From Gemmatimonadota bacterium (GTDB lineage Bacteria; Gemmatimonadota; Gemmatimonadetes; Gemmatimonadales; GWC2-71-9), in assembly GCA_039586895.1 (NCBI GenBank), contig JBDHJM010000007.1, positions 11,263 through 75,262 on the forward strand: a stretch of DNA of 64,000 nt. Direction: 5' to 3'. The position numbers and the translations under genes are program-made. The notes beneath the pieces were generated by a model. The model saw only the letters and a program-made list of their open reading frames with translations. It was not told where the DNA came from and searched no databases. Shown one piece after another: positions 1,398-64,000 of the stretch; the stretch's first letter is position 1, and every line of letters starts with the position of its first letter.

Positions 1398-1958
1398 TCA
1401 CCGCGTCACCTCCACCCGCAGCGCGTCGTTGAAGCGATTGAAGTAAGCGAACAAGCCGGCCACCAGCGTGATCTCAACGATCTCCCCTTCGTCCCAGTGA
1501 GCCGCCAGCTCGCCGTACGCCTCCTCGCTCACCGCGTGCCCGCTCTGGTTCACCAGCTCTGCGTGGCGCAGGGCGGCGAGCCATCCCGGCTCCATGCCGA
1601 CGAGGGATCCCGCGACATCGGAAGCCTCCTCGGGACTCTCCGCGCGCACCGCGGCGATCCACTCCTCGCGTGCTCCCAGCCGCCTCGCCAAGGCGGTGTG
1701 CGAAGCCAGTCAGTAGCGGCACCGGTTGATGGACGACACCCGCACCGAGATCAGCTCCTTGAGCAGGGGCGGTACCTCGCCCTCGGTCATCACGGTGCCG
1801 AAGTGCGCTATGAGCGTGCTGAGGTGCTTGGGCCGCACGGCCACCGTGCGGAACATGTTCGGGATGTTGCCGCGCTCGCGCAGGAACTTGTCGAAGATGC
1901 CGCGGGTCTCGGGTGTCACCTCGTCGGGCGTGCGCGGACGGATGCGGGGCTCGGTCAT
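1398..1958 (-). CDS. AhpD/carboxymuconolactone-decarboxylase-family protein with in-frame TGA (codon 83, 1710..1712), predicted selenocysteine
   Basis: ORF-track fragments 1710..1958 and 1398..1691 share one frame (561 nt = 187 codons). The junction reads INRCRY-[TGA]-LASHTAL, which is CxxCxxxH with TGA in place of the second Cys. Confidence 0.7.
1680..1696 (-). other. candidate SECIS-like hairpin downstream of UGA 1712..1710
   Basis: The mRNA sense reads CCGCC-UUGGCGA-GGCGG and begins 13 nt after the UGA. Flanking GCU/AGC could extend the stem. Judged by eye only. Confidence 0.3.
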
Positions 1959-1970
1959 GACAGTTCGGCC

Positions 1971-2195
1971 TCAGTCGGAGCAGTCGCCGAGGGGATACAC
2001 GAATCCGCAGTTGCGGCACGGGTTCTTGCAGCCGGACGCGCGCAGGGTGACCTCGAATCCACACCGGATGCAGAGATGAAGCGCGCCTGAATGTGTGGCG
2101 CCGCGAAGGCGGGGGTCCCCCTGAGCGAACGTTGGCCACTGCACAGTTCGTGAGGGGGGATCCCCCGCCACGCGGCGCCACATCCCGTCAGTCAA
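1971..2195 (-). CDS. small Cys-rich (zinc-ribbon-like) hypothetical protein
   Basis: The C-terminal half LCIRCGFEVTLRASGCKNPCRNCGFVYPLGDCSD has CxxC...CxxxCxxC spacing and strong GC3 bias. The TTG start overlaps the MBL stop, and an alternative ATG lies 4 codons in. The N-terminal half is weaker. Confidence 0.35.
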   Translation of the reverse strand: MTDGMWRRVAGDPPSRTVQWPTFAQGDPRLRGATHSGALHLCIRCGFEVTLRASGCKNPCRNCGFVYPLGDCSD

Positions 2196-2850
2196 GAGGA
2201 ATGGCTCCCGTAACGAACGGGTTCATGCGGCGCTCCGCGCCAATCGTGGTCTCAGGCCCGTGCCCTGAATAGACCACGGTCTCGTCCGGCAGCGTCATGA
2301 GCTGATCGCGGATGCTGGCCAGCAGAGTGGCCCCGTTGCCGCCGGGCAAATCCACGCGGCCCACCGATCCGGCGAACACCGCGTCACCCACGATGGCCAC
2401 GCCGTGTCCCACGAAGGCCACGCTGCCGGGGCTGTGCCCTGGCACGTGGCGCACCTCGAAGGAGAGCCCGCCCACGGTCATCACGTCACCGTGCGCCAGC
2501 TCGTGCTCGGGGGGCGGGGGCTGCTTGGCCCGCACGCCGAGCCAGGCGCCCTGCTCCTCGACTCCGTCGTACAGTGGCCGGTCGGCGGGGTGCAGGTGCA
2601 CCGGCACGCCGGTCCGCTCCACGACTTCACTCAATCCCAGGATGTGGTCCAGGTGGGCGTGCGTGAGCCACACGGCGCGTGGCGTCAGCCCCTCTGCTTC
2701 GAGGCGCCGCAAGAAGAGGTCGGCCTCCTCACCCGGATCGATGATGACGGCGTCGCCGGCTTCGCGGTCGACCAGGAGAAAGCAGTTCTCCTGGAACACG
2801 CTGTTGGTGAGGCAGATGACCTCAGGGCGAGGCAAGCGCCTCCTGCTCAT
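2188..2850 (-). CDS. MBL-fold metallo-hydrolase (glyoxalase II-like)
   Basis: Motifs seen are THAHLDH, VPGHSPGS and a C-terminal GHG. I chose the internal ATG (MSRRRLPRPEVICL...) rather than the long ORF-track start at 2967. Confidence 0.8.
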   Translation of the reverse strand: MSRRRLPRPEVICLTNSVFQENCFLLVDREAGDAVIIDPGEEADLFLRRLEAEGLTPRAVWLTHAHLDHILGLSEVVERTGVPVHLHPADRPLYDGVEEQGAWLGVRAKQPPPPEHELAHGDVMTVGGLSFEVRHVPGHSPGSVAFVGHGVAIVGDAVFAGSVGRVDLPGGNGATLLASIRDQLMTLPDETVVYSGHGPETTIGAERRMNPFVTGAIPLD

Positions 2851-3904
2851 TGGCCTCCCGGGCCTGGTCGCGCCGCTCTGTGAGGTGCTTCTCGACCGCG
2901 ATTGCCGCGGTGGTCGCATCGCCCACGGCCGTCGTGATCTGCCTGACGAGCTGGACCCTGAGGTCACCGGCGGCGAACAGCCCCTCTATGGACGTCATCA
3001 TATTGCTGTCCGTGACGATGTACCCGCCGGAGTCGTGCTCGAAGTGACCCTTGATGAGGCCGGAGTTGGGCGTGAAGCCTATGAAGATGAACACGCCGCC
3101 CACGTCGAGCTGTGAAGTCTCGCCGGTCTGCGTGTCCTTCAGCTCGAGGTGCGTGACGCCCCTGGGCGCGCCGTGGACCTCCTCCACGACCTTGTTCCAC
3201 ACGACCTCGATCTTGGGGTTGTTGAGCGCCCGCTTCTGCACGATGGGCTTGGCGCGCAGCTCGTCGCGCCGGTGCACGATGTACACCTTCTCCGCGTAGC
3301 GCGTCAGGTAGTCGGCCTCCTCGACGGCCGCGTCGCCGCCGCCCACCACGGCCAAAACCTCGCCCTTGAAGAATGCGCCGTCGCACACGGCACAGTACGA
3401 CACCCCGCGTCCCGCGTACTCCTGCTCTCCGGGCACCCCCAGCTTGCGCGGGGTGCCTCCCGCGGTGAGGATCACGGCCGGGGCGCGGTACGTGACCCCC
3501 TTCTCGGTGACCACGTCGAACTCGCCGTCCTCGCGCTTCGCTATGGACTGCACGGTGTCGGTCACCAGCTCGGCACCGAACTTGAGCGCGTGGTCGGTCA
3601 TCTTCTGTGCCAGCTCGGGTCCCTTGATGCTCTCGAACCCCGGGTAGTCCTCGACGAGCTCCGTATTCAGGATCTCGCCCCCGGGAGCTCCCCGCTCGAG
3701 CAGCAGCGTCTTGAGCATTCCCCGTCCCGAGTACATCGCTGCGCAAAGGCCTGCGGGGCCGCCGCCCACGATGATCACGTCATATGTCTGAACTCGGCTC
3801 TGCTGTTTCTCAGCCACTGGTTCCTCTGCGTGCCGTTGTCCTTCATCCTGGGCCGGGACCCTGCCCGGCCACCCGTTCGCCTCCAGCCCGAGAACGAAGC
3901 GCAC
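2822..3904 (-). CDS. trxB: thioredoxin-disulfide reductase
   Basis: Contains YDVIIVGGGPAGL (FAD site), the redox-active CAVCDG, and VVGGGDAAVEEA (NADPH site). The true start may be the GTG at 3817 (VAEKQQSRVQTYDV) preceded by GAGGAA. Confidence 0.9.
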   Translation of the reverse strand: MRFVLGLEANGWPGRVPAQDEGQRHAEEPVAEKQQSRVQTYDVIIVGGGPAGLCAAMYSGRGMLKTLLLERGAPGGEILNTELVEDYPGFESIKGPELAQKMTDHALKFGAELVTDTVQSIAKREDGEFDVVTEKGVTYRAPAVILTAGGTPRKLGVPGEQEYAGRGVSYCAVCDGAFFKGEVLAVVGGGDAAVEEADYLTRYAEKVYIVHRRDELRAKPIVQKRALNNPKIEVVWNKVVEEVHGAPRGVTHLELKDTQTGETSQLDVGGVFIFIGFTPNSGLIKGHFEHDSGGYIVTDSNMMTSIEGLFAAGDLRVQLVRQITTAVGDATTAAIAVEKHLTERRDQAREANEQEALASP

Positions 3905-3946
3905 GGCGCCGATGTTCCCGCCGCACGCCGCCCACCCGTAAAGTAC

Positions 3947-4387
3947 CTAACGCAGTGTCGCCAGGCTCTGGTCGGGGCCCGGCGCCCCGCGCGCCGCGAA
4001 CTCTACGGTGCCGTCCTGCTTCACCAGCACCACGGTGCGCTGGATCTTCTTCCCGTCGGGCTTGAGCGCACCGAAAGCCGCGATCGCGTTCCGGGTGGGG
4101 TCGCTCAGCAGCGGGAACGGCAGCTTTAGTTTGTTGGCGTACTTGAGGTGGCTGTCCACCCCGGCGAAGTTCACTCCGAAGGGCCGGACGTTGGCTGCTC
4201 TGTAGGTCTCGATCTCATCGCGCACGGCGGAGAGTTGCTTGTTTCAGCCAGGCGTGTTGTTGCCGGGATAGAAGATGAGCAGCACGTGGGACTCATCGAG
4301 CACGTCACGCAGCCTGTAGCGAGTCCCGTCGGACGCCTCCAGCGCGAAGTCCGGTGCGGCGGTGCCGACCGCGATCAAGTCATCCAT
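3947..4387 (-). CDS. peroxiredoxin (AhpC/TSA/Bcp type) with in-frame TGA (codon 48, 4244..4246), predicted selenocysteine
   Basis: Fragments 4244..4447 and 3947..4225 share one frame (441 nt = 147 codons). The junction reads LLIFYPGNNTPG-[TGA]-NKQLSAVRDEIETY, against the Prx consensus FYPxxxTPGC. The ATG at 4387 overlaps the PHP stop by 1 nt, with GGAGG upstream. Confidence 0.7.
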
Positions 4388-5238
4388 CACGTTGCCTCCG
4401 GTAGTTCGGTTCTCTGTAGGTGCAGCGTCCGGAGCCGCTCGAGCCACTCCTCCGGAATGGTGATCGACCCCAGAGCGGCGCGCTCCGGGGGAGTGGCGCA
4501 GTCACCGTGCCAGTCGGTGCCCCCGGTCGGCAGCAGGTCCAGCTCGGCGGCCAGCCGCTCCACCCGCTGCACGGTAGCCTCGTCATGCGCAGGGTGCATG
4601 ACCTCCACTCCGTCCAGTCCGGCGCCGCGCAGCTGCCGTAGGATGCCCCGGGTCGCGCGATCTCTCAAGTGTGCAGCCGAGGTCACGCCGCCCACCTCAC
4701 GCACCAGCGCGGTCACGTCGGCGACGGGCGGGAGCTCCTTGGGGACGAATGCGGGACGGCGCCACCCCAGGTACCTGCGGAACGCAGTGTCCACGTCGGG
4801 CACCAGCCCGCCGTCCACCAGAGCGCGGGCCACGTGGGGCCGGCCGATCGCCTCGCCGCTGGACGCCTGCAGCACCTGCTCCACCGTTATCACTGCCCCC
4901 GCCTTGTTGAGCCGCTCCACGATGCGCTCGGCGCGGCGGCGGCGCTTGAGCCGCTGGTCCAGCAGGAAGGCGTTGAGCCGCTCGTCGTCGGCGGGAAGGA
5001 AGTAGGCCAGCAGATGCATCTCCCCCCAAGGGGCCGCGACCGAGAACTCGCAGCCGGTGACGACGTCCACTCCCACGGCGCGCCCCTCCTGCTCGGCCGC
5101 GGGCAATCCAGCCAGCGAATCGTGGTCCGTGAGTCCGATCGTGGTGAGGCCGGCGGCCGCCGCACGCCGCACGACCTCCTCGGGCGCGCAGTCCCCATCG
5201 GACGCGGTCGAGTGCATGTGCAGATCGACCGAGCCCAC
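4387..5238 (-). CDS. PHP-domain phosphoesterase (TrpH/YciV-like)
   Basis: The N-terminus VDLHMHSTASDGD and the following GLTDHDS are typical PHP motifs. GTG start. Confidence 0.85.
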   Translation of the reverse strand: MGSVDLHMHSTASDGDCAPEEVVRRAAAAGLTTIGLTDHDSLAGLPAAEQEGRAVGVDVVTGCEFSVAAPWGEMHLLAYFLPADDERLNAFLLDQRLKRRRRAERIVERLNKAGAVITVEQVLQASSGEAIGRPHVARALVDGGLVPDVDTAFRRYLGWRRPAFVPKELPPVADVTALVREVGGVTSAAHLRDRATRGILRQLRGAGLDGVEVMHPAHDEATVQRVERLAAELDLLPTGGTDWHGDCATPPERAALGSITIPEEWLERLRTLHLQRTELPEAT

Positions 5239-31417: not shown

Positions 31418-31490
31418 TGGAGCGGATGGGATTCGAACCCACGACCCCCGGCTTGCAAAGCCGGTGCTCTCCCAACTGAGCTACCGCCCC
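31418..31490 (-). tRNA. tRNA-Ala (anticodon UGC)
   Basis: The reverse complement GGGGCGGTAGCTCAGTTGGGAGAGCACCGGCTTTGCAAGCCGGGGGTCGTGGGTTCGAATCCCATCCGCTCCA folds as a cloverleaf. It has the G3:U70 Ala identity pair and a GGTTCGAATCC T-arm. CCA is not encoded. Confidence 0.9.
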
Positions 31491-59387: not shown

Positions 59388-60158
59388 ATGCCCACACCGC
59401 CGCCGTGCACGAGACTCGGCCGACAATGCCGGGAGCTCGCAGTAACACTGCGCATTGCAGAGTCGGATGACAGCCGCACACTGCAGGATGCGGCCGCCAC
59501 CTGGCTGCTGGGACACACCGAGCGCATCACCATGGGCAAGCCCTACTGGAGCGACGATGAGTTCCTGGTGGACGCCACGCTGCATGTGCCGTGCAAGTAC
59601 CTGAAGGAGCAGGGCAAGTCGGGGCGTGCGCACTGTACCGCCCACGGCTTCAGGGGGCCGATGCCTTTGAGCAGCCAGCGTGTGGGTGAGCAGCGCGAGG
59701 AGCTCTTGCTGGACAACGGCACATACGTTCTGGTCTACAAGGGACGCCAGCGCGCCCTCGACCTCCCGCTCAAGAAGGCCGCGCGGCGAGCGCTGCCGGT
59801 AGTGCAGAACCACAACCCCTGCCTCGATGCTCCCTGCCGCACGGGGGACAACAAGCGCGGCGCGGCCTGCTGCAGGGACCTCACGCTCGAGCTCGACCTG
59901 CCGGAGCCGTCCACGCGCATGATGGCCCTGCTGCGCGCCCGCAAGTCTCCATACCTGTGCAAGGTCACCCGCGAAGGCCCGAACGCGGTCGAGGTCGAGG
60001 TGATCTCCGCCTGTGGATACCTGGGCGACGACGGAATCAGCTGCGTGCTGCACGACCGGGTGCTGCCCAACGGGCGCCTCGCGAAACCTTCAATCTGCAT
60101 GGAGTGGCCGGACCTCGACGATGACGACGAGGGCCATCCCGGCTGTGCACTCACCTGA
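59388..60158 (+). CDS. cysteine-cluster protein (partly YkgJ/UPF0153-like)
   Basis: Thirteen Cys residues including PCLDAPC...AACCRD and ACGYLGDDGISCVLHD...PSICMEWP. It starts 4 nt after the upstream gene. Confidence 0.5.
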   Translation: MPTPPPCTRLGRQCRELAVTLRIAESDDSRTLQDAAATWLLGHTERITMGKPYWSDDEFLVDATLHVPCKYLKEQGKSGRAHCTAHGFRGPMPLSSQRVGEQREELLLDNGTYVLVYKGRQRALDLPLKKAARRALPVVQNHNPCLDAPCRTGDNKRGAACCRDLTLELDLPEPSTRMMALLRARKSPYLCKVTREGPNAVEVEVISACGYLGDDGISCVLHDRVLPNGRLAKPSICMEWPDLDDDDEGHPGCALT

Positions 60159-60192
60159 AGCCCGTTACAGCGACAACCGAAGGACGGACCAC

Positions 60193-61335
60193 ATGATGGT
60201 GCCCGAGATCACTCCCGACGAACTGGCCCGCGCGCTGGAGGCGGGCGACCCGGTGCAGGTGCTCGACGTCCGGGCGCCGCAGCGCCTGGCCGCCGGCCGC
60301 ATCGAGCTGGCGCCCGAGGACAGGTTTCACAACATCGTGGGGTCCCGGATCGTCCAGATGCGCTCCGCCGACGAGACCGGCCTGGACGCGGCCGCACCCG
60401 TGGCGGTCGTGTGCGGGCACGGCAACGACAGCAAGGTCGTGGCCACCCTGCTGAACCGGTTCGGCTTCGAGGCCGCGTCGCTGCACGGCGGCATGGCTGG
60501 ATGGAACCTGCTCACGCTGCCGCGCGAGCTGCCGGCGACGGATTCCCTGGACCGGCTGGTCCAGTTCGACCGCATGGGCAAGGCCGCACTGGGCTATCTC
60601 CTGGTGAGCGACGGTGAGGCCATGGTCGTAGACGCGCCGCGGGAGTTCTCGACTTACCTCGCCGCGGCCGACGAGGCTGACGCCCAGATAGTGGCCGTGG
60701 CCGACACTCACTGTCACGCCGACTACATCAGTGGCGGCCCGCACCTGGCGCGTGCGCTGGGCGCTCCCTACTACCTGCACGAGGCAGACAGCAGCTACCC
60801 CTACGACGGTACGCCCGGCCGGCTCCGGTTCGAGCCGCTAGAGGACGGGACGTCCATCCGCGTGGGACGCGCCACGGTGCGCGTACAACGCACGCCGGGC
60901 CACACCGAGGGCAGCGTCACGTTCCTGGTGGACGAGCAGGCGGCCTTCACCGGCGACTTCATATTCGTGGCCTCGATCGGGCGGCCCGACCTGGCCGGCA
61001 AGTCGGCCGAGTGGACGGTGCAGCTGTGGGACAGCCTGGCCGCGGCGAAGTCCGACTGGCCGGCGGACGTGGCGATCTACCCGGCGCATTACGCGCTGGA
61101 GGAAGAGCGCAACGCGGACCGCTCGGTAGGGCGGCCGCTGGGAGAGCTGCTGCGCACCAACGAGCCGCTCGCGATCGGCGACCGTGGCACGTTCGTTCAG
61201 TGGGTGGAGGCCCGCACCGGCACGTTCCCGGAACAGTACCGCGTAATCAAGGCCGTGAACGTGGGCCTCACTCCGGTGACGGAGCTGCAGGCCGAAGAGC
61301 TGGAGATGGGAAAAAACGAGTGTGCGCTGGGGTAG
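60193..61335 (+). CDS. rhodanese-persulfide dioxygenase (MBL-fold) fusion protein
   Basis: The N-terminal rhodanese has the loop VCGHGNDS. The MBL part has DTHCHADYISGG and TPGHTEGS. I chose the ATG at 60193. Confidence 0.8.
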   Translation: MMVPEITPDELARALEAGDPVQVLDVRAPQRLAAGRIELAPEDRFHNIVGSRIVQMRSADETGLDAAAPVAVVCGHGNDSKVVATLLNRFGFEAASLHGGMAGWNLLTLPRELPATDSLDRLVQFDRMGKAALGYLLVSDGEAMVVDAPREFSTYLAAADEADAQIVAVADTHCHADYISGGPHLARALGAPYYLHEADSSYPYDGTPGRLRFEPLEDGTSIRVGRATVRVQRTPGHTEGSVTFLVDEQAAFTGDFIFVASIGRPDLAGKSAEWTVQLWDSLAAAKSDWPADVAIYPAHYALEEERNADRSVGRPLGELLRTNEPLAIGDRGTFVQWVEARTGTFPEQYRVIKAVNVGLTPVTELQAEELEMGKNECALG

Positions 61336-62150: not shown

Positions 62151-64000
62151 CTACCGCCGCCGCACTTCCTCCCGCAGGCGCTGATACTGATCTGGTGCGA
62201 GGAAGTAGACTCGCTCAAACGCCTCGTTGGTCTTGCTGTCCTCCGCTCCGACCGCGTCCAGGAAAACCCTGCGGTACCGGGATGCAAGGGTCGGTGCGTA
62301 GAAGTCGAGGATCAGCGCGCCGCAGCGAACCGCTGCCCGGCGCCTGAGGTCCTCGAGCTCGAATCCACCGATGCCGGCACCCAGCACCTGGTCGTCCACC
62401 AGCAGGAAGCAGAGCTCCTTCAGGAACGCGAAGATCGTGACCTCCGGCTCGTCCGTTCCCAGAGGCATCTGCACCGAGACGATCTGGTCGTCGCGCTGCA
62501 GCTCGTCGAACTCCACGATGCGCCCCTCGGGTCCCATGGGCGGCGACGGGAACACCAGCCCCGCGGTGATCCGGCGGCGCTCGAGGTATGTCCCGATATG
62601 GGGCACGAACAGTGTGTCCCACATCATCTGCATCGCCTCGAACCGCGGAGCCTGCTCCTGAACGTACTCGTCCCAGTAGTCCCGGTAGAAGACCTCCCAC
62701 TCGATCTCCGCGGCCTCCACCAGCCGCTTCAGCAAATCGCGCGAGCGCCCCGACTGCAGCGACTGATCCAGTATGAACATGCCGAACGCGGCGTCCATCG
62801 GATTGCCGCGCGGGCGCGCCGTGGCCTCTTCGCCGGGCTGCGTGGGCTGCACGCCCTGGGGAACGCCCCTCTCTGCGCCGGGGCGCATGCCCATCAGTTC
62901 GTTTCGGGACGGCAGCTGCCGGTTGGCCACACGCCTCAACGCCTCCAGCAGCTGCTCGGGCCCCACCAGCGGGAAGTACAGGGGCACGAAGTGCAGCACG
63001 TCCAGATCGCCGCGCTCCGTGATGTTCTCACGCAGGTCGATGGCGAGCGAGTCGAGCGGAGTGGGGTAGACGCCGCGCTCCCGCTTGATGTCCCTTATGC
63101 GGCGCGCGTAGTCGGCGCTGTACATGCCCAGGGGGCCGGGTTGATCGGCCGCGATCACCGCCAGAGTGTGGAACCAAAGATCGGCGTGTGCAGCGGGGCG
63201 CAGGATCCACGAGGTCGGACCGGTCGGCTGCACCATCTCCACCGGCGCCTCCGCCACCCGGGGAGCCGTGCGCTGACGCAGGGCGTCGAGCACCGTGCGC
63301 TCCACGAAATACACCTCTGCGAAGGTCATGCCGGCCACTTCGGGGCGGCTCTCCAGCGCGGCCGCAAGGAAGACCGCCTCGTAACGCTCCACCTGCTCCG
63401 GAGCGTTGGCCTCGAGCAGCAGGGAACCGCATCGCACGGCAGTGCGGCTCATGGTGTCGGAGTCGGACCCGTCCAGGCCGGCGCGCACGGCGTCCGCCGC
63501 GGTGGAGAAGCACGACTCGCGCAGGATGGCGTAGGCCGAGGCGTCCGGATCGCGCGGCTCCTGCGGTGAGCGCACGGCCACGACGTTGTCGAGGCGGCGG
63601 AACGGGCTGCCCTCGTAGATCCGGCCCTCGGGCCCCAGAGCGGCAGACACCAGCACCGTCCCGGCGTCCACGGCACGCGACTCCAGGAACGGCATCACGG
63701 GCGGGGCCACTTCTTCGGTCCAGCGGCGCTCGACCTCGGCCACGTGCGCTGAGTCAGATCCGATAGTGCGGGTCCAGTAGTCGGCAAAGAACTCCGCCCA
63801 CTCCGCCTGCAGCACCTCCACGAAGCGCTCCAGCACCTCGCGGTGGTCGCCCTCGCGGAAGATCCCGGCCGCCTCCCTGATACCGAACCGCGTGCGCGAA
63901 TCGAAGAACTGCGCCTGGCTCATGTTGCGCTGGGCCACCGCCTGGAGCGCGAACAGCATCTCCTCGGGTTCCGCCTGCGCGAAGTAGAGCGGGATGAAAT
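62151..64000 (-). CDS. hypothetical protein with internally duplicated modules; N-terminus lies beyond the window
   Basis: The frame stays open upstream of the ORF-track Met at 63959 to the window edge (..FIPLYFAQAEPEEM..). Module pairs recur: AEWAEFFADYW/EIEWEVFYRDYW, GPEGRIYEG/GPEGRIVEF, AVRCGSLLLE/AVRCGALILD. Confidence 0.6.
   Translation of the reverse strand, partial: FIPLYFAQAEPEEMLFALQAVAQRNMSQAQFFDSRTRFGIREAAGIFREGDHREVLERFVEVLQAEWAEFFADYWTRTIGSDSAHVAEVERRWTEEVAPPVMPFLESRAVDAGTVLVSAALGPEGRIYEGSPFRRLDNVVAVRSPQEPRDPDASAYAILRESCFSTAADAVRAGLDGSDSDTMSRTAVRCGSLLLEANAPEQVERYEAVFLAAALESRPEVAGMTFAEVYFVERTVLDALRQRTAPRVAEAPVEMVQPTGPTSWILRPAAHADLWFHTLAVIAADQPGPLGMYSADYARRIRDIKRERGVYPTPLDSLAIDLRENITERGDLDVLHFVPLYFPLVGPEQLLEALRRVANRQLPSRNELMGMRPGAERGVPQGVQPTQPGEEATARPRGNPMDAAFGMFILDQSLQSGRSRDLLKRLVEAAEIEWEVFYRDYWDEYVQEQAPRFEAMQMMWDTLFVPHIGTYLERRRITAGLVFPSPPMGPEGRIVEFDELQRDDQIVSVQMPLGTDEPEVTIFAFLKELCFLLVDDQVLGAGIGGFELEDLRRRAAVRCGALILDFYAPTLASRYRRVFLDAVGAEDSKTNEAFERVYFLAPDQYQRLREEVRRR

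What the first reader, a model, noticed from the sequence alone, without database searches (positions are those of the whole stretch)
3947..4387. Peroxiredoxin gene with an in-frame TGA exactly at the peroxidatic-Cys position (predicted selenocysteine)
Two same-strand, same-frame ORF-track fragments (4244..4447 and 3947..4225) are separated only by TGA at 4244..4246. Read through from the ATG at 4387, they give a 146-aa AhpC/TSA/Bcp-type protein: MDDLIAVGTAAPDFALEASDG...HVLLIFYPGNNTPG-[TGA]-NKQLSAVRDEIETYRAANVRPFGVN. In peroxiredoxins the residue after T-P-G is the catalytic Cys (FYPxxxTPGC). A random nonsense mutation landing on that exact codon is unlikely. Coding bias (GC3) also continues on both sides. 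Prx-like proteins are among the families reported to have Sec-containing members. I could not identify a convincing SECIS hairpin by eye downstream of this UGA, only short stems such as CGAU-GAG-AUCG.
Basis: partly seen in the sequence, partly recalled or inferred. Interest (0 to 1): 0.75.

Follow-up and report, generated by a model that had tools for sequence, protein, structure and literature searches.

The report
Selenocysteine peroxiredoxin gene in Gemmatimonadota
The apparent internal stop codon in this bacterial antioxidant-enzyme gene almost certainly encodes selenocysteine at the catalytic site; this is a known kind of selenoprotein that gene callers routinely split into two fragments, and a second such gene lies about 2 kb away.

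Summary
On the minus strand, ATG 4387 to TAG 3947 encodes a 146-codon Bcp/PrxQ-type peroxiredoxin. Its only interruption is TGA 4246..4244, at the peroxidatic-Cys position (PxxxT-P-G-U).

- **Conservation:** the same TGA is present in 42 of 44 Gemmatimonadota genome loci and 79 of 80 metagenome loci. Syntenic orthologs carry TGC (Cys).
- **Selection:** both halves evolve under equal purifying selection.
- **RNA signal:** a 21-nt stretch 9 nt after the UGA (4234..4214) is frozen at synonymous sites in every Sec-type gene. Cys-type orthologs encode the same amino acids there with varied codons. The stretch folds into a small hairpin with G-U in the apical loop 17 nt after the UGA, so it is SECIS-like but weak (about -5.4 kcal/mol).
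- **Second gene:** an AhpD-like gene (1958..1398, TGA 1712..1710, CxxU) lies about 2 kb downstream. Its SECIS is canonical and shows compensatory covariation. This argues that the lineage decodes Sec.
- **Not tested:** selA, selB, selC and selD were absent from about 1 Mb of fetched DNA. Their presence elsewhere in the genome could not be tested.

Sec-Prx (TxxU) and AhpD-like (CxxU) are both catalogued selenoprotein families. This is a new member of a known kind, and public records mis-annotate it as truncated ORFs.

The parts
3947..4387 (-). Selenoprotein gene: Bcp/PrxQ-type 1-Sec peroxiredoxin. 146 codons: M1...T45-P46-G47-U48-N49-K50..., stop TAG 3949..3947. The protein contains no Cys residue.
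   Evidence: AhpC-TSA 3.1e-30, full-length match. (closest to Bcp PRK09437 and PrxQ, below the equivalog cutoffs). (PDB Bcp alignments). Orthologs.
4244..4246 (-). In-frame TGA, the predicted Sec codon (U48), at the peroxidatic-Cys position.
   Evidence: TGA in the window, in 42 of 44 genome loci and in 79 of 80 metagenome loci. TGC in syntenic orthologs L030 and L047-L052.
4214..4234 (-). Predicted SECIS core: CUCUCCGCCGUGCGCGAUGAG (nt 13-33 counted from the U of UGA). Small hairpin with G22-U23 in the apical loop. It includes the GTG (4225) that gene callers mistake for a start codon.
   Evidence: The codons CTC TCC GCC GTG CGC .. GAG are identical in 43 of 43 sequences, while invariant residues upstream use 2-4 codons each. 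pS is 0.14 here versus 0.56-0.61 elsewhere. Cys-type orthologs differ at 2-6 of the 21 nt. 77 of 79 metagenome copies are identical apart from Y30.
4395..4399 (-). Shine-Dalgarno GGAGG, 7 nt upstream of ATG 4387.
   Evidence: Read directly from the sequence.
4387..5238 (-). Upstream PHP-domain phosphoesterase gene. Its TGA stop (4389..4387) overlaps the Prx ATG, which suggests translational coupling and shows TGA acting as a genuine stop here.
   Evidence: NF041577 and NF047791 hits, below cutoff. PF02811 in syntenic loci.
2822..3718 (-). Thioredoxin-disulfide reductase (TrxB, CAVC motif), the next gene downstream. It is the likely head of the reducing system for the Prx.
   Evidence: TIGR01292 at 381.8 bits, above the 343.45 cutoff. 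Called as a 298-aa gene on the public contig.
2188..2835 (-). MBL-fold hydrolase, a conserved member of the cluster.
   Evidence: PF00753 3.9e-32. Synteny.
1398..1958 (-). Second predicted selenoprotein gene: AhpD/CMD-like, 186 codons, motif C80-R-Y-U83 (CxxU).
   Evidence: PF02627 5.2e-17. ahpD_dom at 57.3 bits, above the 27.8 cutoff, and TIGR01926 at 70.1 bits, below the 81.8 cutoff. TGA at this codon in 15 copies (14 loci plus the window), TGC in L051.
1710..1712 (-). In-frame TGA, the predicted Sec codon of the AhpD-like gene.
1680..1696 (-). Canonical bSECIS hairpin of the AhpD-like gene: CCGCCUU-GGC-GAGGCGG (nt 17-33 from the U of UGA).
   Evidence: 100% of cells paired. Two pairs change C-G to U-A on both sides in L023, L032 and L033. 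RNAalifold gives -10.66 kcal/mol.

Best explanation
The gene at 4387..3947 (minus strand) encodes a 146-residue Bcp/PrxQ-type peroxiredoxin whose peroxidatic residue is selenocysteine (U48), specified by UGA 4246..4244.

Proposed decoding (inferred from the established bacterial Sec pathway): during translation, a small mRNA hairpin starting 9 nt after the UGA (4234..4214) acts as the bacterial SECIS. It recruits SelB-GTP-Sec-tRNA(Sec) to the ribosome, so the UGA is read as Sec and not as stop.

Proposed catalysis (inferred from Prx chemistry and gene context): the selenolate attacks peroxide and forms a selenenic acid. The protein has no Cys at all, so there is no resolving Cys, and it should work as a '1-Sec' Prx recycled by an external thiol. 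The most likely reductant is thioredoxin, kept reduced by the TrxB encoded immediately downstream.

The gene sits in a conserved redox cluster (PHP - Prx(U) - TrxB - MBL - AhpD-like(U)). That cluster holds a second selenoprotein gene with its own canonical SECIS.

Shown here: the conserved TGA, the Cys orthologs, purifying selection on both halves, the RNA-level constraint tied to the TGA, and the hairpin geometry. Inferred: SelB/tRNA-Sec dependence, actual Se incorporation, peroxidase activity and the reductant.
For: 1. The TGA is at the exact catalytic-Cys column of a full-length AhpC-TSA domain.
2. TGA is conserved in the window, in 42 of 44 species-level Gemmatimonadota genomes and in 79 of 80 metagenome contigs, at protein identities down to about 53%.
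3. Positional orthologs in the same synteny carry TGC.
4. pN/pS is 0.46 upstream and 0.47 downstream of the TGA, so the N-terminal 47 codons are translated and functional.
5. Six of the seven codons at +4 to +10 use a single codon in 43 of 43 genes, whereas the invariant residues FYPGNNTPG just upstream use 2-4 codons each. pS falls four-fold there.
6. Control: seven Cys-type orthologs encoding (nearly) the same residues differ at 2-6 of the 21 nt. Sec-type genes differ at 0-1, and only at one unpaired position.
7. The hairpin has a 3-5 nt apical loop containing G22-U23, 17 nt after the UGA. This satisfies three of the four published bSECIS criteria.
8. TGA ends 23 of 46 crude ORFs in the window, including the overlapping upstream gene, so there is no code reassignment.
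9. A GGAGG RBS and an ATG precede the N-terminal fragment.
10. A second gene about 2 kb away (AhpD-like, CxxU) has a conserved TGA, a Cys ortholog, and a -10.7 kcal/mol hairpin with compensatory changes. This shows that the lineage uses UGA+SECIS recoding.
11. Prx (TxxU) and AhpD-like TIGR01926 (CxxU) are catalogued selenoprotein families.
Against: - No selA, selB, selD or tRNA-Sec was found in the window or in about 1.06 Mb of related DNA. They may simply be unlinked, but their presence in this genome is untested.
- The Prx hairpin is weak: -5.4 kcal/mol for the core, -6.5 in context, against a bSECIS cutoff of -7.5. It is no more stable than shuffled sequence.
- Being invariant, the Prx hairpin offers essentially no covariation. 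Only one variant, L111, keeps a hairpin by re-registering the lower stem.
- No Rfam family matches.
- A covariance model built from the neighbouring AhpD-like SECIS does not detect the Prx hairpin.
- No accessible paper documents the Sec trait in Gemmatimonadota.
- There is no experimental evidence of Se incorporation.
Confidence: 0.9

Rival explanations
1. The gene is a pseudogene or truncated gene: a nonsense mutation inactivated the peroxiredoxin, and only a 47-aa stub is made.
For: Public gene callers annotate it as 47-aa and 92-aa fragments. No Sec machinery was found nearby.
Against: The same TGA occurs in more than 120 independent loci spanning 53-88% protein identity. Both halves stay in frame, with pN/pS about 0.46. 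The few truly damaged copies look different: a frameshift in L042 and an internal deletion in L039.
Confidence: 0.01
2. The UGA is read through by a mechanism other than SelB/Sec. Examples are near-cognate Trp or Cys insertion, or a suppressor tRNA, with the conserved 21-mer acting as a generic read-through stimulator.
For: The Sec machinery was not demonstrated in this genome. The Prx hairpin is weaker than the bSECIS energy cutoff, and it is not recognised by a model of the neighbouring canonical SECIS.
Against: The codon sits exactly where homologs have the redox-active Cys, in two different enzyme families in the same cluster (TxxU and CxxU). That is the hallmark of Sec. Trp, Arg or Gly at the peroxidatic position would abolish catalysis. 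Hairpin position and G-U loop fit the bSECIS model. Both families are known selenoproteins.
Confidence: 0.04
3. Two separate polypeptides are made: a 47-aa N-terminal peptide, and a 92-aa C-terminal protein initiated at the internal GTG 4225. On this reading the conserved 21-mer is a translation-initiation region.
For: GTG 4225 lies inside the invariant block, and gene callers use it as a start in about 100 database entries.
Against: The sequence upstream of the GTG (CUCUCCGCC) resembles the complement of a Shine-Dalgarno sequence, not an SD itself. One AhpC-TSA domain spans both parts. The C-terminal fragment would lack beta1-beta3 and the catalytic residue. Cys-type orthologs are single 147-152 aa proteins in the same synteny.
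Confidence: 0.01
4. The TGA is a sequencing or assembly artefact, and the true codon is TGC or TGT.
For: The window is metagenome-derived sequence.
Against: TGA was recovered independently in more than 120 assemblies from many projects and samples. It is coupled to a specific downstream nucleotide signature that the TGC genes lack.
Confidence: 0.005

Closest known systems
Sec-containing peroxiredoxin family (Prx; PF00578 / COG1225 Bcp; motif TxxU). The founding example is PrxU of Eubacterium acidaminophilum (Sohling et al. 2001, as cited in PMC9312934 and PMC13188914).
   Same: AhpC/TSA fold. Sec replaces the peroxidatic Cys in PxxxTxxU. UGA is followed by an in-ORF hairpin. Cys-containing orthologs exist.
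   Different: It is not a PrxU equivalog: NF040737 scores 33.6 bits against a cutoff of 270. It forms a Gemmatimonadota-specific Bcp/PrxQ-like clade with its own invariant SECIS and no Cys anywhere in the protein. No accessible paper discusses the phylum in this context.
1-Cys and atypical 2-Cys Bcp/PrxQ peroxiredoxins (PDB 3drn, S. solfataricus Bcp1; 5enu; E. coli Bcp, PRK09437).
   Same: They are the best sequence matches. The active-site motif FYPxxxTPG-C aligns with the TGA. The conserved Arg (R117 here) is invariant.
   Different: Sec in place of Cys. No resolving Cys at +5 (Ser53 here). One Cys-type ortholog, P0013, has CxxxxC. Scores are below the Bcp and PrxQ equivalog cutoffs: 64 versus 140, and 63 versus 260.
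Bacterial SECIS consensus (Zhang & Gladyshev model as summarised in PMC13188914; archetype E. coli fdhF).
   Same: A hairpin inside the ORF just 3' of the UGA. A small apical loop with G followed by U in its first positions. 17 nt between the UGA and the loop, within the 16-37 nt range.
   Different: Stability of -5.4 to -6.5 kcal/mol misses the -7.5 cutoff. The stem is 3+3 bp around an internal loop, or 8 bp with two bulges. The element is conserved as sequence (21 nt invariant), not as a covarying structure.
AhpD-like selenoproteins (TIGR01926, CxxU), and the Prx-like/AhpD-like selenoprotein gene clustering reported from ocean metagenomes (PMC13188914).
   Same: The second gene in the window has CxxU in the AhpD core motif, its best NCBIfam hit is TIGR01926, it has a canonical SECIS, and it is co-located with a Prx selenoprotein gene.
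   Different: TIGR01926 scores just below its cutoff (70.1 versus 81.8). Here the two genes are separated by trxB and an MBL hydrolase gene, so they are not adjacent.

Membership tests
Peroxiredoxin (AhpC/TSA, PF00578) | A single thioredoxin-fold AhpC-TSA domain | tested here: met
   PF00578 E=3.1e-30, 105 bits (cutoff 26). Residues 7-130 match profile positions 1-123 of 124 and span the TGA.
Peroxiredoxin (AhpC/TSA, PF00578) | Active-site motif PxxxTxxC, with the peroxidatic residue at the C position | tested here: met
   P41-G-N-N-T45-P-G-[TGA]48. The TGA aligns with Cys in 9 full-length homologs and with TPGC of PDB 5enu.
Peroxiredoxin (AhpC/TSA, PF00578) | Conserved catalytic Arg | tested here: met
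   R117 (IQ-R-TVVLV) is invariant in alignments A1 and A3, and aligns with the Arg of IERSTFLI in 5enu. Its catalytic role is inferred.
Peroxiredoxin (AhpC/TSA, PF00578) | Peroxidase activity | not testable with these tools
   Needs an enzyme assay.
Bcp / PrxQ equivalogs (NF006960, NF053650) | Score above the curated equivalog cutoff | tested here: not met
   64.2 bits versus 140, and 62.7 bits versus 260. These are the closest subfamilies, but this is a distinct clade.
PrxU selenoprotein equivalog (NF040737) | Score above the curated cutoff | tested here: not met
   33.6 bits versus 270.
Bacterial selenoprotein gene | In-frame UGA aligned with Cys in homologs (Sec/Cys pair) | tested here: met
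   TGA in more than 120 loci. TGC in L030 and L047-L052, and Cys in P0002, P0004, P0005, P0006, P0010, P0013, P0014, P0061 and P0095.
Bacterial selenoprotein gene | Coding conservation on both sides of the UGA | tested here: met
   pN/pS is 0.46 upstream and 0.47 downstream. GC3 is 0.86 on both sides.
Bacterial selenoprotein gene | bSECIS: 3-9 nt apical loop on a stem of at least 4 bp, with G in the first two loop positions (G[G/U]) | tested here: met
   The loop is CGUGC or CGU, with G22-U23. The stem is 3+3 bp around a 2x2 internal loop, or 8 bp with two bulges. The exact register is unresolved.
Bacterial selenoprotein gene | bSECIS: 16-37 nt between the UGA and the apical loop | tested here: met
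   17 nt (nt 4-20).
Bacterial selenoprotein gene | bSECIS: MFE of -7.5 kcal/mol or lower | tested here: not met
   -5.4 kcal/mol for the 21-nt core, -6.5 in a 50-nt context, -6.3 by alifold. The neighbouring AhpD-like SECIS reaches -10.66.
Bacterial selenoprotein gene | RNA-level (synonymous-site) constraint downstream of the UGA, specific to the UGA-containing forms | tested here: met
   One codon in 43 of 43 sequences at six of the seven codons +4..+10. Cys-type orthologs show 2-6 mismatches in the 21 nt.
Bacterial selenoprotein gene | Base-pair covariation in the SECIS | tested here: inconclusive
   The Prx element is invariant. Only L111 varies, and it retains a hairpin by re-registering the lower stem.
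Bacterial selenoprotein gene | Genome encodes selA, selB, selC (tRNA-Sec) and selD | not testable with these tools
   Absent from the window and from about 1.06 Mb of related loci. Indirect support: a second UGA+SECIS gene in the same cluster.
Bacterial selenoprotein gene | Selenium actually incorporated | not testable with these tools
   Needs 75Se labelling or mass spectrometry.
AhpD-like selenoprotein (TIGR01926 / PF02627, CxxU), second gene at 1398..1958 | AhpD core domain with CxxC/U, UGA aligned with Cys, canonical SECIS | tested here: met
   ahpD_dom scores 57.3 bits, above the 27.8 cutoff. PF02627 5.2e-17. TIGR01926 scores 70.1, just below 81.8. The motif is C-R-Y-[TGA]. L051 has TGC. 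The hairpin has 7 bp, loop GGC, a 20-nt spacing and -10.66 kcal/mol, with 2 compensatory pairs.

The most novel reading that the evidence does not exclude
The Prx element may be a distinct, sequence-specific class of bacterial SECIS. It is a weak 21-nt hairpin (about -5 kcal/mol) held absolutely invariant across an entire order. It coexists in the same genomes, and within 3 kb, with a canonical, stable, covarying SECIS in the AhpD-like gene. This could mean that one SelB reads two very different signals. Alternatively, the invariant 21-mer may carry an added function, such as tuning Sec insertion efficiency or termination to selenium supply.
Probability: 0.2. Interest if true: 0.45.

Novelty: new member of a known kind. 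Interest (0 to 1): 0.3.

Why it matters
**Annotation.** More than 100 database clusters of 92-93 aa 'peroxiredoxin' or 'hypothetical' proteins from Gemmatimonadota are halves of one selenoprotein. Many are named by JGI, and a few are deposited at NCBI. The neighbouring AhpD-like gene is likewise split into unannotated 82-aa and 97-aa ORFs. Correcting these calls restores two antioxidant enzymes to the metabolic picture of a phylum that is abundant in soils and sediments.

**Biology.** The finding indicates that selenium is used for peroxide defence in mostly aerobic soil Gemmatimonadota. No accessible paper discusses Sec use in this phylum.

**SECIS models.** The locus provides a natural paired example of a canonical and a borderline SECIS in one gene cluster. 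The BSepDB paper reports that about 13% of bacterial selenoprotein genes lack a canonical element, so such cases are useful for refining models.

None of this is conceptually new, because Sec-Prx and Sec-AhpD-like families are established.

Tried and rejected
- **Rfam.** The scan at gathering threshold and a permissive scan of 4100-4320 gave no SECIS or other family.
- **Plain MFE folding.** Folding 50-114 nt after the UGA gave energies no better than shuffles (z = +0.1 to +1.5). By this test alone no SECIS would be called.
- **RNAalifold on wider windows.** It found no conserved lower-stem extension.
- **Covariance model from the AhpD-like UGA+SECIS (R1).** It finds only its own site (68.7 bits) and not the Prx site at E up to 10. 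The CCGCC shared at nt 17-21 is therefore not evidence that the two are one RNA family.
- **Sec machinery searches.** ARAGORN on the window and all loci found no tRNA-Sec. tblastn with E. coli SelA, SelB and SelD against about 1.06 Mb found no hits.
- **More selenoprotein genes.** The Prx 21-mer (up to 4 mismatches) does not follow a TGA anywhere else. A crude TGA-split-ORF scan of the window recovered the Prx and missed the AhpD-like gene. Its other hits look like antisense frames or adjacent genes.
- **Literature.** Searches for Gemmatimonadetes/Gemmatimonadota with selenocysteine or selenoprotein, and the supplements of three surveys, yielded nothing specific.
- **Genome-wide TGA reassignment.** Rejected: 23 of 46 crude ORFs end in TGA.
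Full report
**Observation.** On the minus strand, the ORF fragments 4244..4447 and 3947..4225 lie in one frame and are separated only by TGA 4246..4244. From ATG 4387 the read-through product has 146 codons: 47 aa, then TGA, then 98 aa, ending at TAG 3949..3947. A GGAGG lies 7 nt upstream of the ATG, and the ATG overlaps the TGA stop of the upstream PHP-domain gene (GTGATGG). With Cys substituted for the TGA, Pfam AhpC-TSA matches residues 7-130 over profile positions 1-123 of 124 (E=3.1e-30). One domain therefore spans both fragments. The TGA follows T45-P46-G47 inside P41-x-x-x-T45-x-x-[TGA]. PDB alignments place it on the peroxidatic Cys of Bcp-type peroxiredoxins. GC3 is 0.86 on each side.

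**Is it a real, maintained feature?** A protein search gave an unusual picture. About a hundred clusters at 60-88% identity are only 92-93 aa long and cover only the C-terminal 62-63% of the query. The full-length (147-152 aa) hits are only 47-58% identical. Fetching DNA explained this.
- 44 genome loci were recovered, of which 43 are Gemmatimonadota MAGs. In 42 of them the same codon is TGA, with both halves conserved in frame.
- L030 has TGC, and the distant L044 also has Cys.
- Among 80 metagenome contigs, 79 have TGA.
- The 92-aa 'proteins' start at a GTG nine codons after the TGA. On the public contig that carries this very sequence, the gene is called as a 47-aa ORF plus a 92-aa ORF.
- Nei-Gojobori estimates over 741 pairs give pN/pS 0.46 for the 38 codons before the TGA and 0.47 for codons +11 to +60. 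The N-terminal part is as constrained as the C-terminal part.

Pseudogene, sequencing error and two-polypeptide readings are therefore untenable. Genome-wide reassignment of TGA is excluded as well, because 23 of 46 crude ORFs in the window end in TGA, including the gene that overlaps the Prx start.

**Sec/Cys pairs.** Nine full-length homologs carry Cys at the TGA column. Six Cys-type contigs were fetched. They show the same neighbourhood as the window: 2-oxoacid dehydrogenase E1/E2, PHP, Prx, a pyridine-nucleotide disulfide reductase and an MBL hydrolase. They are positional orthologs.

**The SECIS.** Simple folding of the 50-114 nt after the UGA is no better than shuffled sequence, and Rfam finds nothing. 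Comparative analysis does reveal an element.
- Codons +4 to +8 and +10 (CTC TCC GCC GTG CGC .. GAG) use one codon each in 43 of 43 genes. The equally invariant residues FYPGNNTPG just upstream use 2-4 codons each.
- Synonymous divergence falls from 0.56-0.61 to 0.14 in codons +1 to +10.
- The decisive control is that the Cys-type orthologs keep the same peptide (N-R-Q-L-S-A-V-R-D) but spell it with varied codons. They show 2-6 mismatches to the 21-mer in 7 of 7 genes. Sec-type genes show 0-1 mismatch, always at one position.
- In the metagenome set, 77 of 79 copies are identical apart from that position.

The constraint is therefore on the RNA and is coupled to the TGA. The 21 nt are window 4234..4214, which is nt 13-33 counted from the U of UGA. 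They fold in one of two ways: CUC/GAG plus CGC/GCG around a 2x2 internal loop with apical loop CGUGC (-5.4 kcal/mol), or, nearly isoenergetically, as 8 bp with two single-nucleotide bulges and a CGU triloop. The one variable nucleotide (Y30) is unpaired in both models. The one divergent intact gene (L111) keeps the upper five pairs and the triloop while re-registering the lower stem.

I compared the hairpin with the published bSECIS criteria (PMC13188914). The loop size, the G followed by U in the first loop positions, and the 17-nt spacing are all met. The -7.5 kcal/mol threshold is narrowly missed. Because the element is invariant, it gives no real covariation evidence.

**Does the lineage decode Sec at all?** No tRNA-Sec and no selA, selB or selD lie in the window, in the 44+80 related loci, or in the extra flank of the source contig. 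That is about 1.06 Mb in total.

Indirect evidence came from synteny. The Cys-type locus L051 has a CMD/AhpD-like gene a few genes downstream. At the equivalent place in the window there are only two short ORFs. Read together (ATG 1958 to stop 1398, minus strand), they form a 186-codon AhpD-like protein with an in-frame TGA (1712..1710) at the second Cys of the family's CxxC motif, giving C-R-Y-U.
- Pfam CMD matches at 5.2e-17. The NCBIfam AhpD core domain scores above its cutoff. The best full-length model is TIGR01926 at 70 bits against a cutoff of 82.
- The TGA is conserved in 15 copies, and L051 has TGC.
- It is followed by a canonical SECIS: a 7-bp stem at nt 17-33, loop GGC, a 20-nt spacing and -10.66 kcal/mol. 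All cells are paired, and two pairs switch C-G to U-A on both sides in L023, L032 and L033. Those three sequences probably form one clade, so this represents few independent events.

Two different redox enzymes in one gene cluster each have UGA at the redox-active Cys position, a Cys ortholog and a hairpin in the right place. This is the standard computational signature of a Sec-decoding organism.

**Mechanism.**
- Shown: gene structure, conservation, the RNA constraint and the hairpin geometry.
- Inferred from the established bacterial pathway: SelB-GTP-Sec-tRNA(Sec) binds the hairpin and inserts Sec at UGA 4246..4244.
- Inferred from Prx chemistry: U48, activated by T45 and R117 (invariant), reduces peroxide via a selenenic acid.
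- The window's protein has no Cys at all, and Ser occupies the +5 position where atypical 2-Cys Bcp proteins, and the Cys-type ortholog P0013, have the resolving Cys. It should therefore act as a 1-Sec enzyme recycled by an external thiol.
- The next gene downstream is a bona fide thioredoxin reductase (TIGR01292 at 382 bits, above cutoff), which points to the thioredoxin system.

**Comparison with what is known.** Peroxiredoxin (PF00578/COG1225, TxxU) is an experimentally founded selenoprotein family, found in 78 organisms in a 2016 survey. AhpD-like (TIGR01926, CxxU) and CMD-like (CxxU) families are catalogued, and co-location of Prx-like and AhpD-like selenoprotein genes has been noted in marine metagenomes. 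The present Prx is not a PrxU equivalog (33.6 versus 270 bits), and it falls below the Bcp and PrxQ equivalog cutoffs. It is a Gemmatimonadota-specific clade. No accessible paper discusses selenoproteins of this phylum. The 2026 BSepDB resource covers 16,621 species in 88 lineages and may already list these genes.

A covariance model of the AhpD-like SECIS does not recognise the Prx hairpin. The two elements are structurally different, although both have CCGCC at nt 17-21.

**Verdict.** The main gap is the untested presence of selABCD. It is a new member of a known kind, valuable for annotation and mildly interesting for SECIS diversity, but not surprising to a specialist.

Noticed in passing
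window 1398..1958 (-), TGA 1710..1712, hairpin 1680..1696: A second predicted selenoprotein gene: AhpD/CMD-like with a C-R-Y-U motif. Its canonical SECIS shows compensatory base-pair changes across loci. Public gene calls split it into 82-aa and 97-aa ORFs with no Pfam hit.
   Followed up: yes
L053 (Logan SRR28211907 contig), protein P0021: An ortholog has CGA (Arg) in place of the TGA, yet its 21-nt SECIS core is perfect (0 mismatches). This is either a very recent TGA-to-CGA change that would kill catalysis, or a sequencing or strain variant. P0050 similarly shows Ser at this column.
   Followed up: partly
L042 and L039 (genome loci): Two Sec-type copies look damaged. L042 is frameshifted after '...KSHAG', and L039 has an internal deletion of about 26 codons. 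These may be genuine decay or assembly errors, and they contrast with the intact majority.
   Followed up: no
L051 / P0013, and L047-L053 compared with window 2822..3947: Cys-type loci carry an SDR gene between the Prx and the reductase gene, and most also carry an AF_1314_C-domain gene there. The window lacks both genes. The Cys-type P0013 has a resolving-type Cys at +5 (CNKQLC), where all Sec-type genes have Ser, encoded inside the SECIS.
   Followed up: partly
L050, L052 (Cys-type orthologs): Some Cys-type genes differ from the Sec-type 21-mer at only 2-3 positions. This could be a fossil SECIS from a Sec-to-Cys conversion, or merely high-GC codon bias. The direction of evolution was not resolved.
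   Followed up: no
window 62151..63959 (-): A 602-aa ORF has no NCBIfam match and appears to consist of two similar halves. For example, '...GPEGRIYEG...' recurs as '...GPEGRIVEF...', and 'EWAEFFADYWT' recurs as 'EWEVFYRDYWD'. Function unknown.
   Followed up: no
window 60013..61335 (+) and 39860..40660 (-): The first ORF is a rhodanese + MBL-fold protein resembling sulfurtransferase/persulfide-dioxygenase fusions. The second is a possible MBL-type ORF (judged by eye, not annotated) that starts immediately after an in-frame TGA ending a same-frame upstream ORF (TGA at 40666). The second case is most likely just two adjacent genes, not recoding.
   Followed up: no
window 31418..31490 (-): The only tRNA in the window is tRNA-Ala(TGC). 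Many related loci have a tRNA-Leu(CAG) about 6-10 kb from the Prx gene, but the window does not.
   Followed up: no
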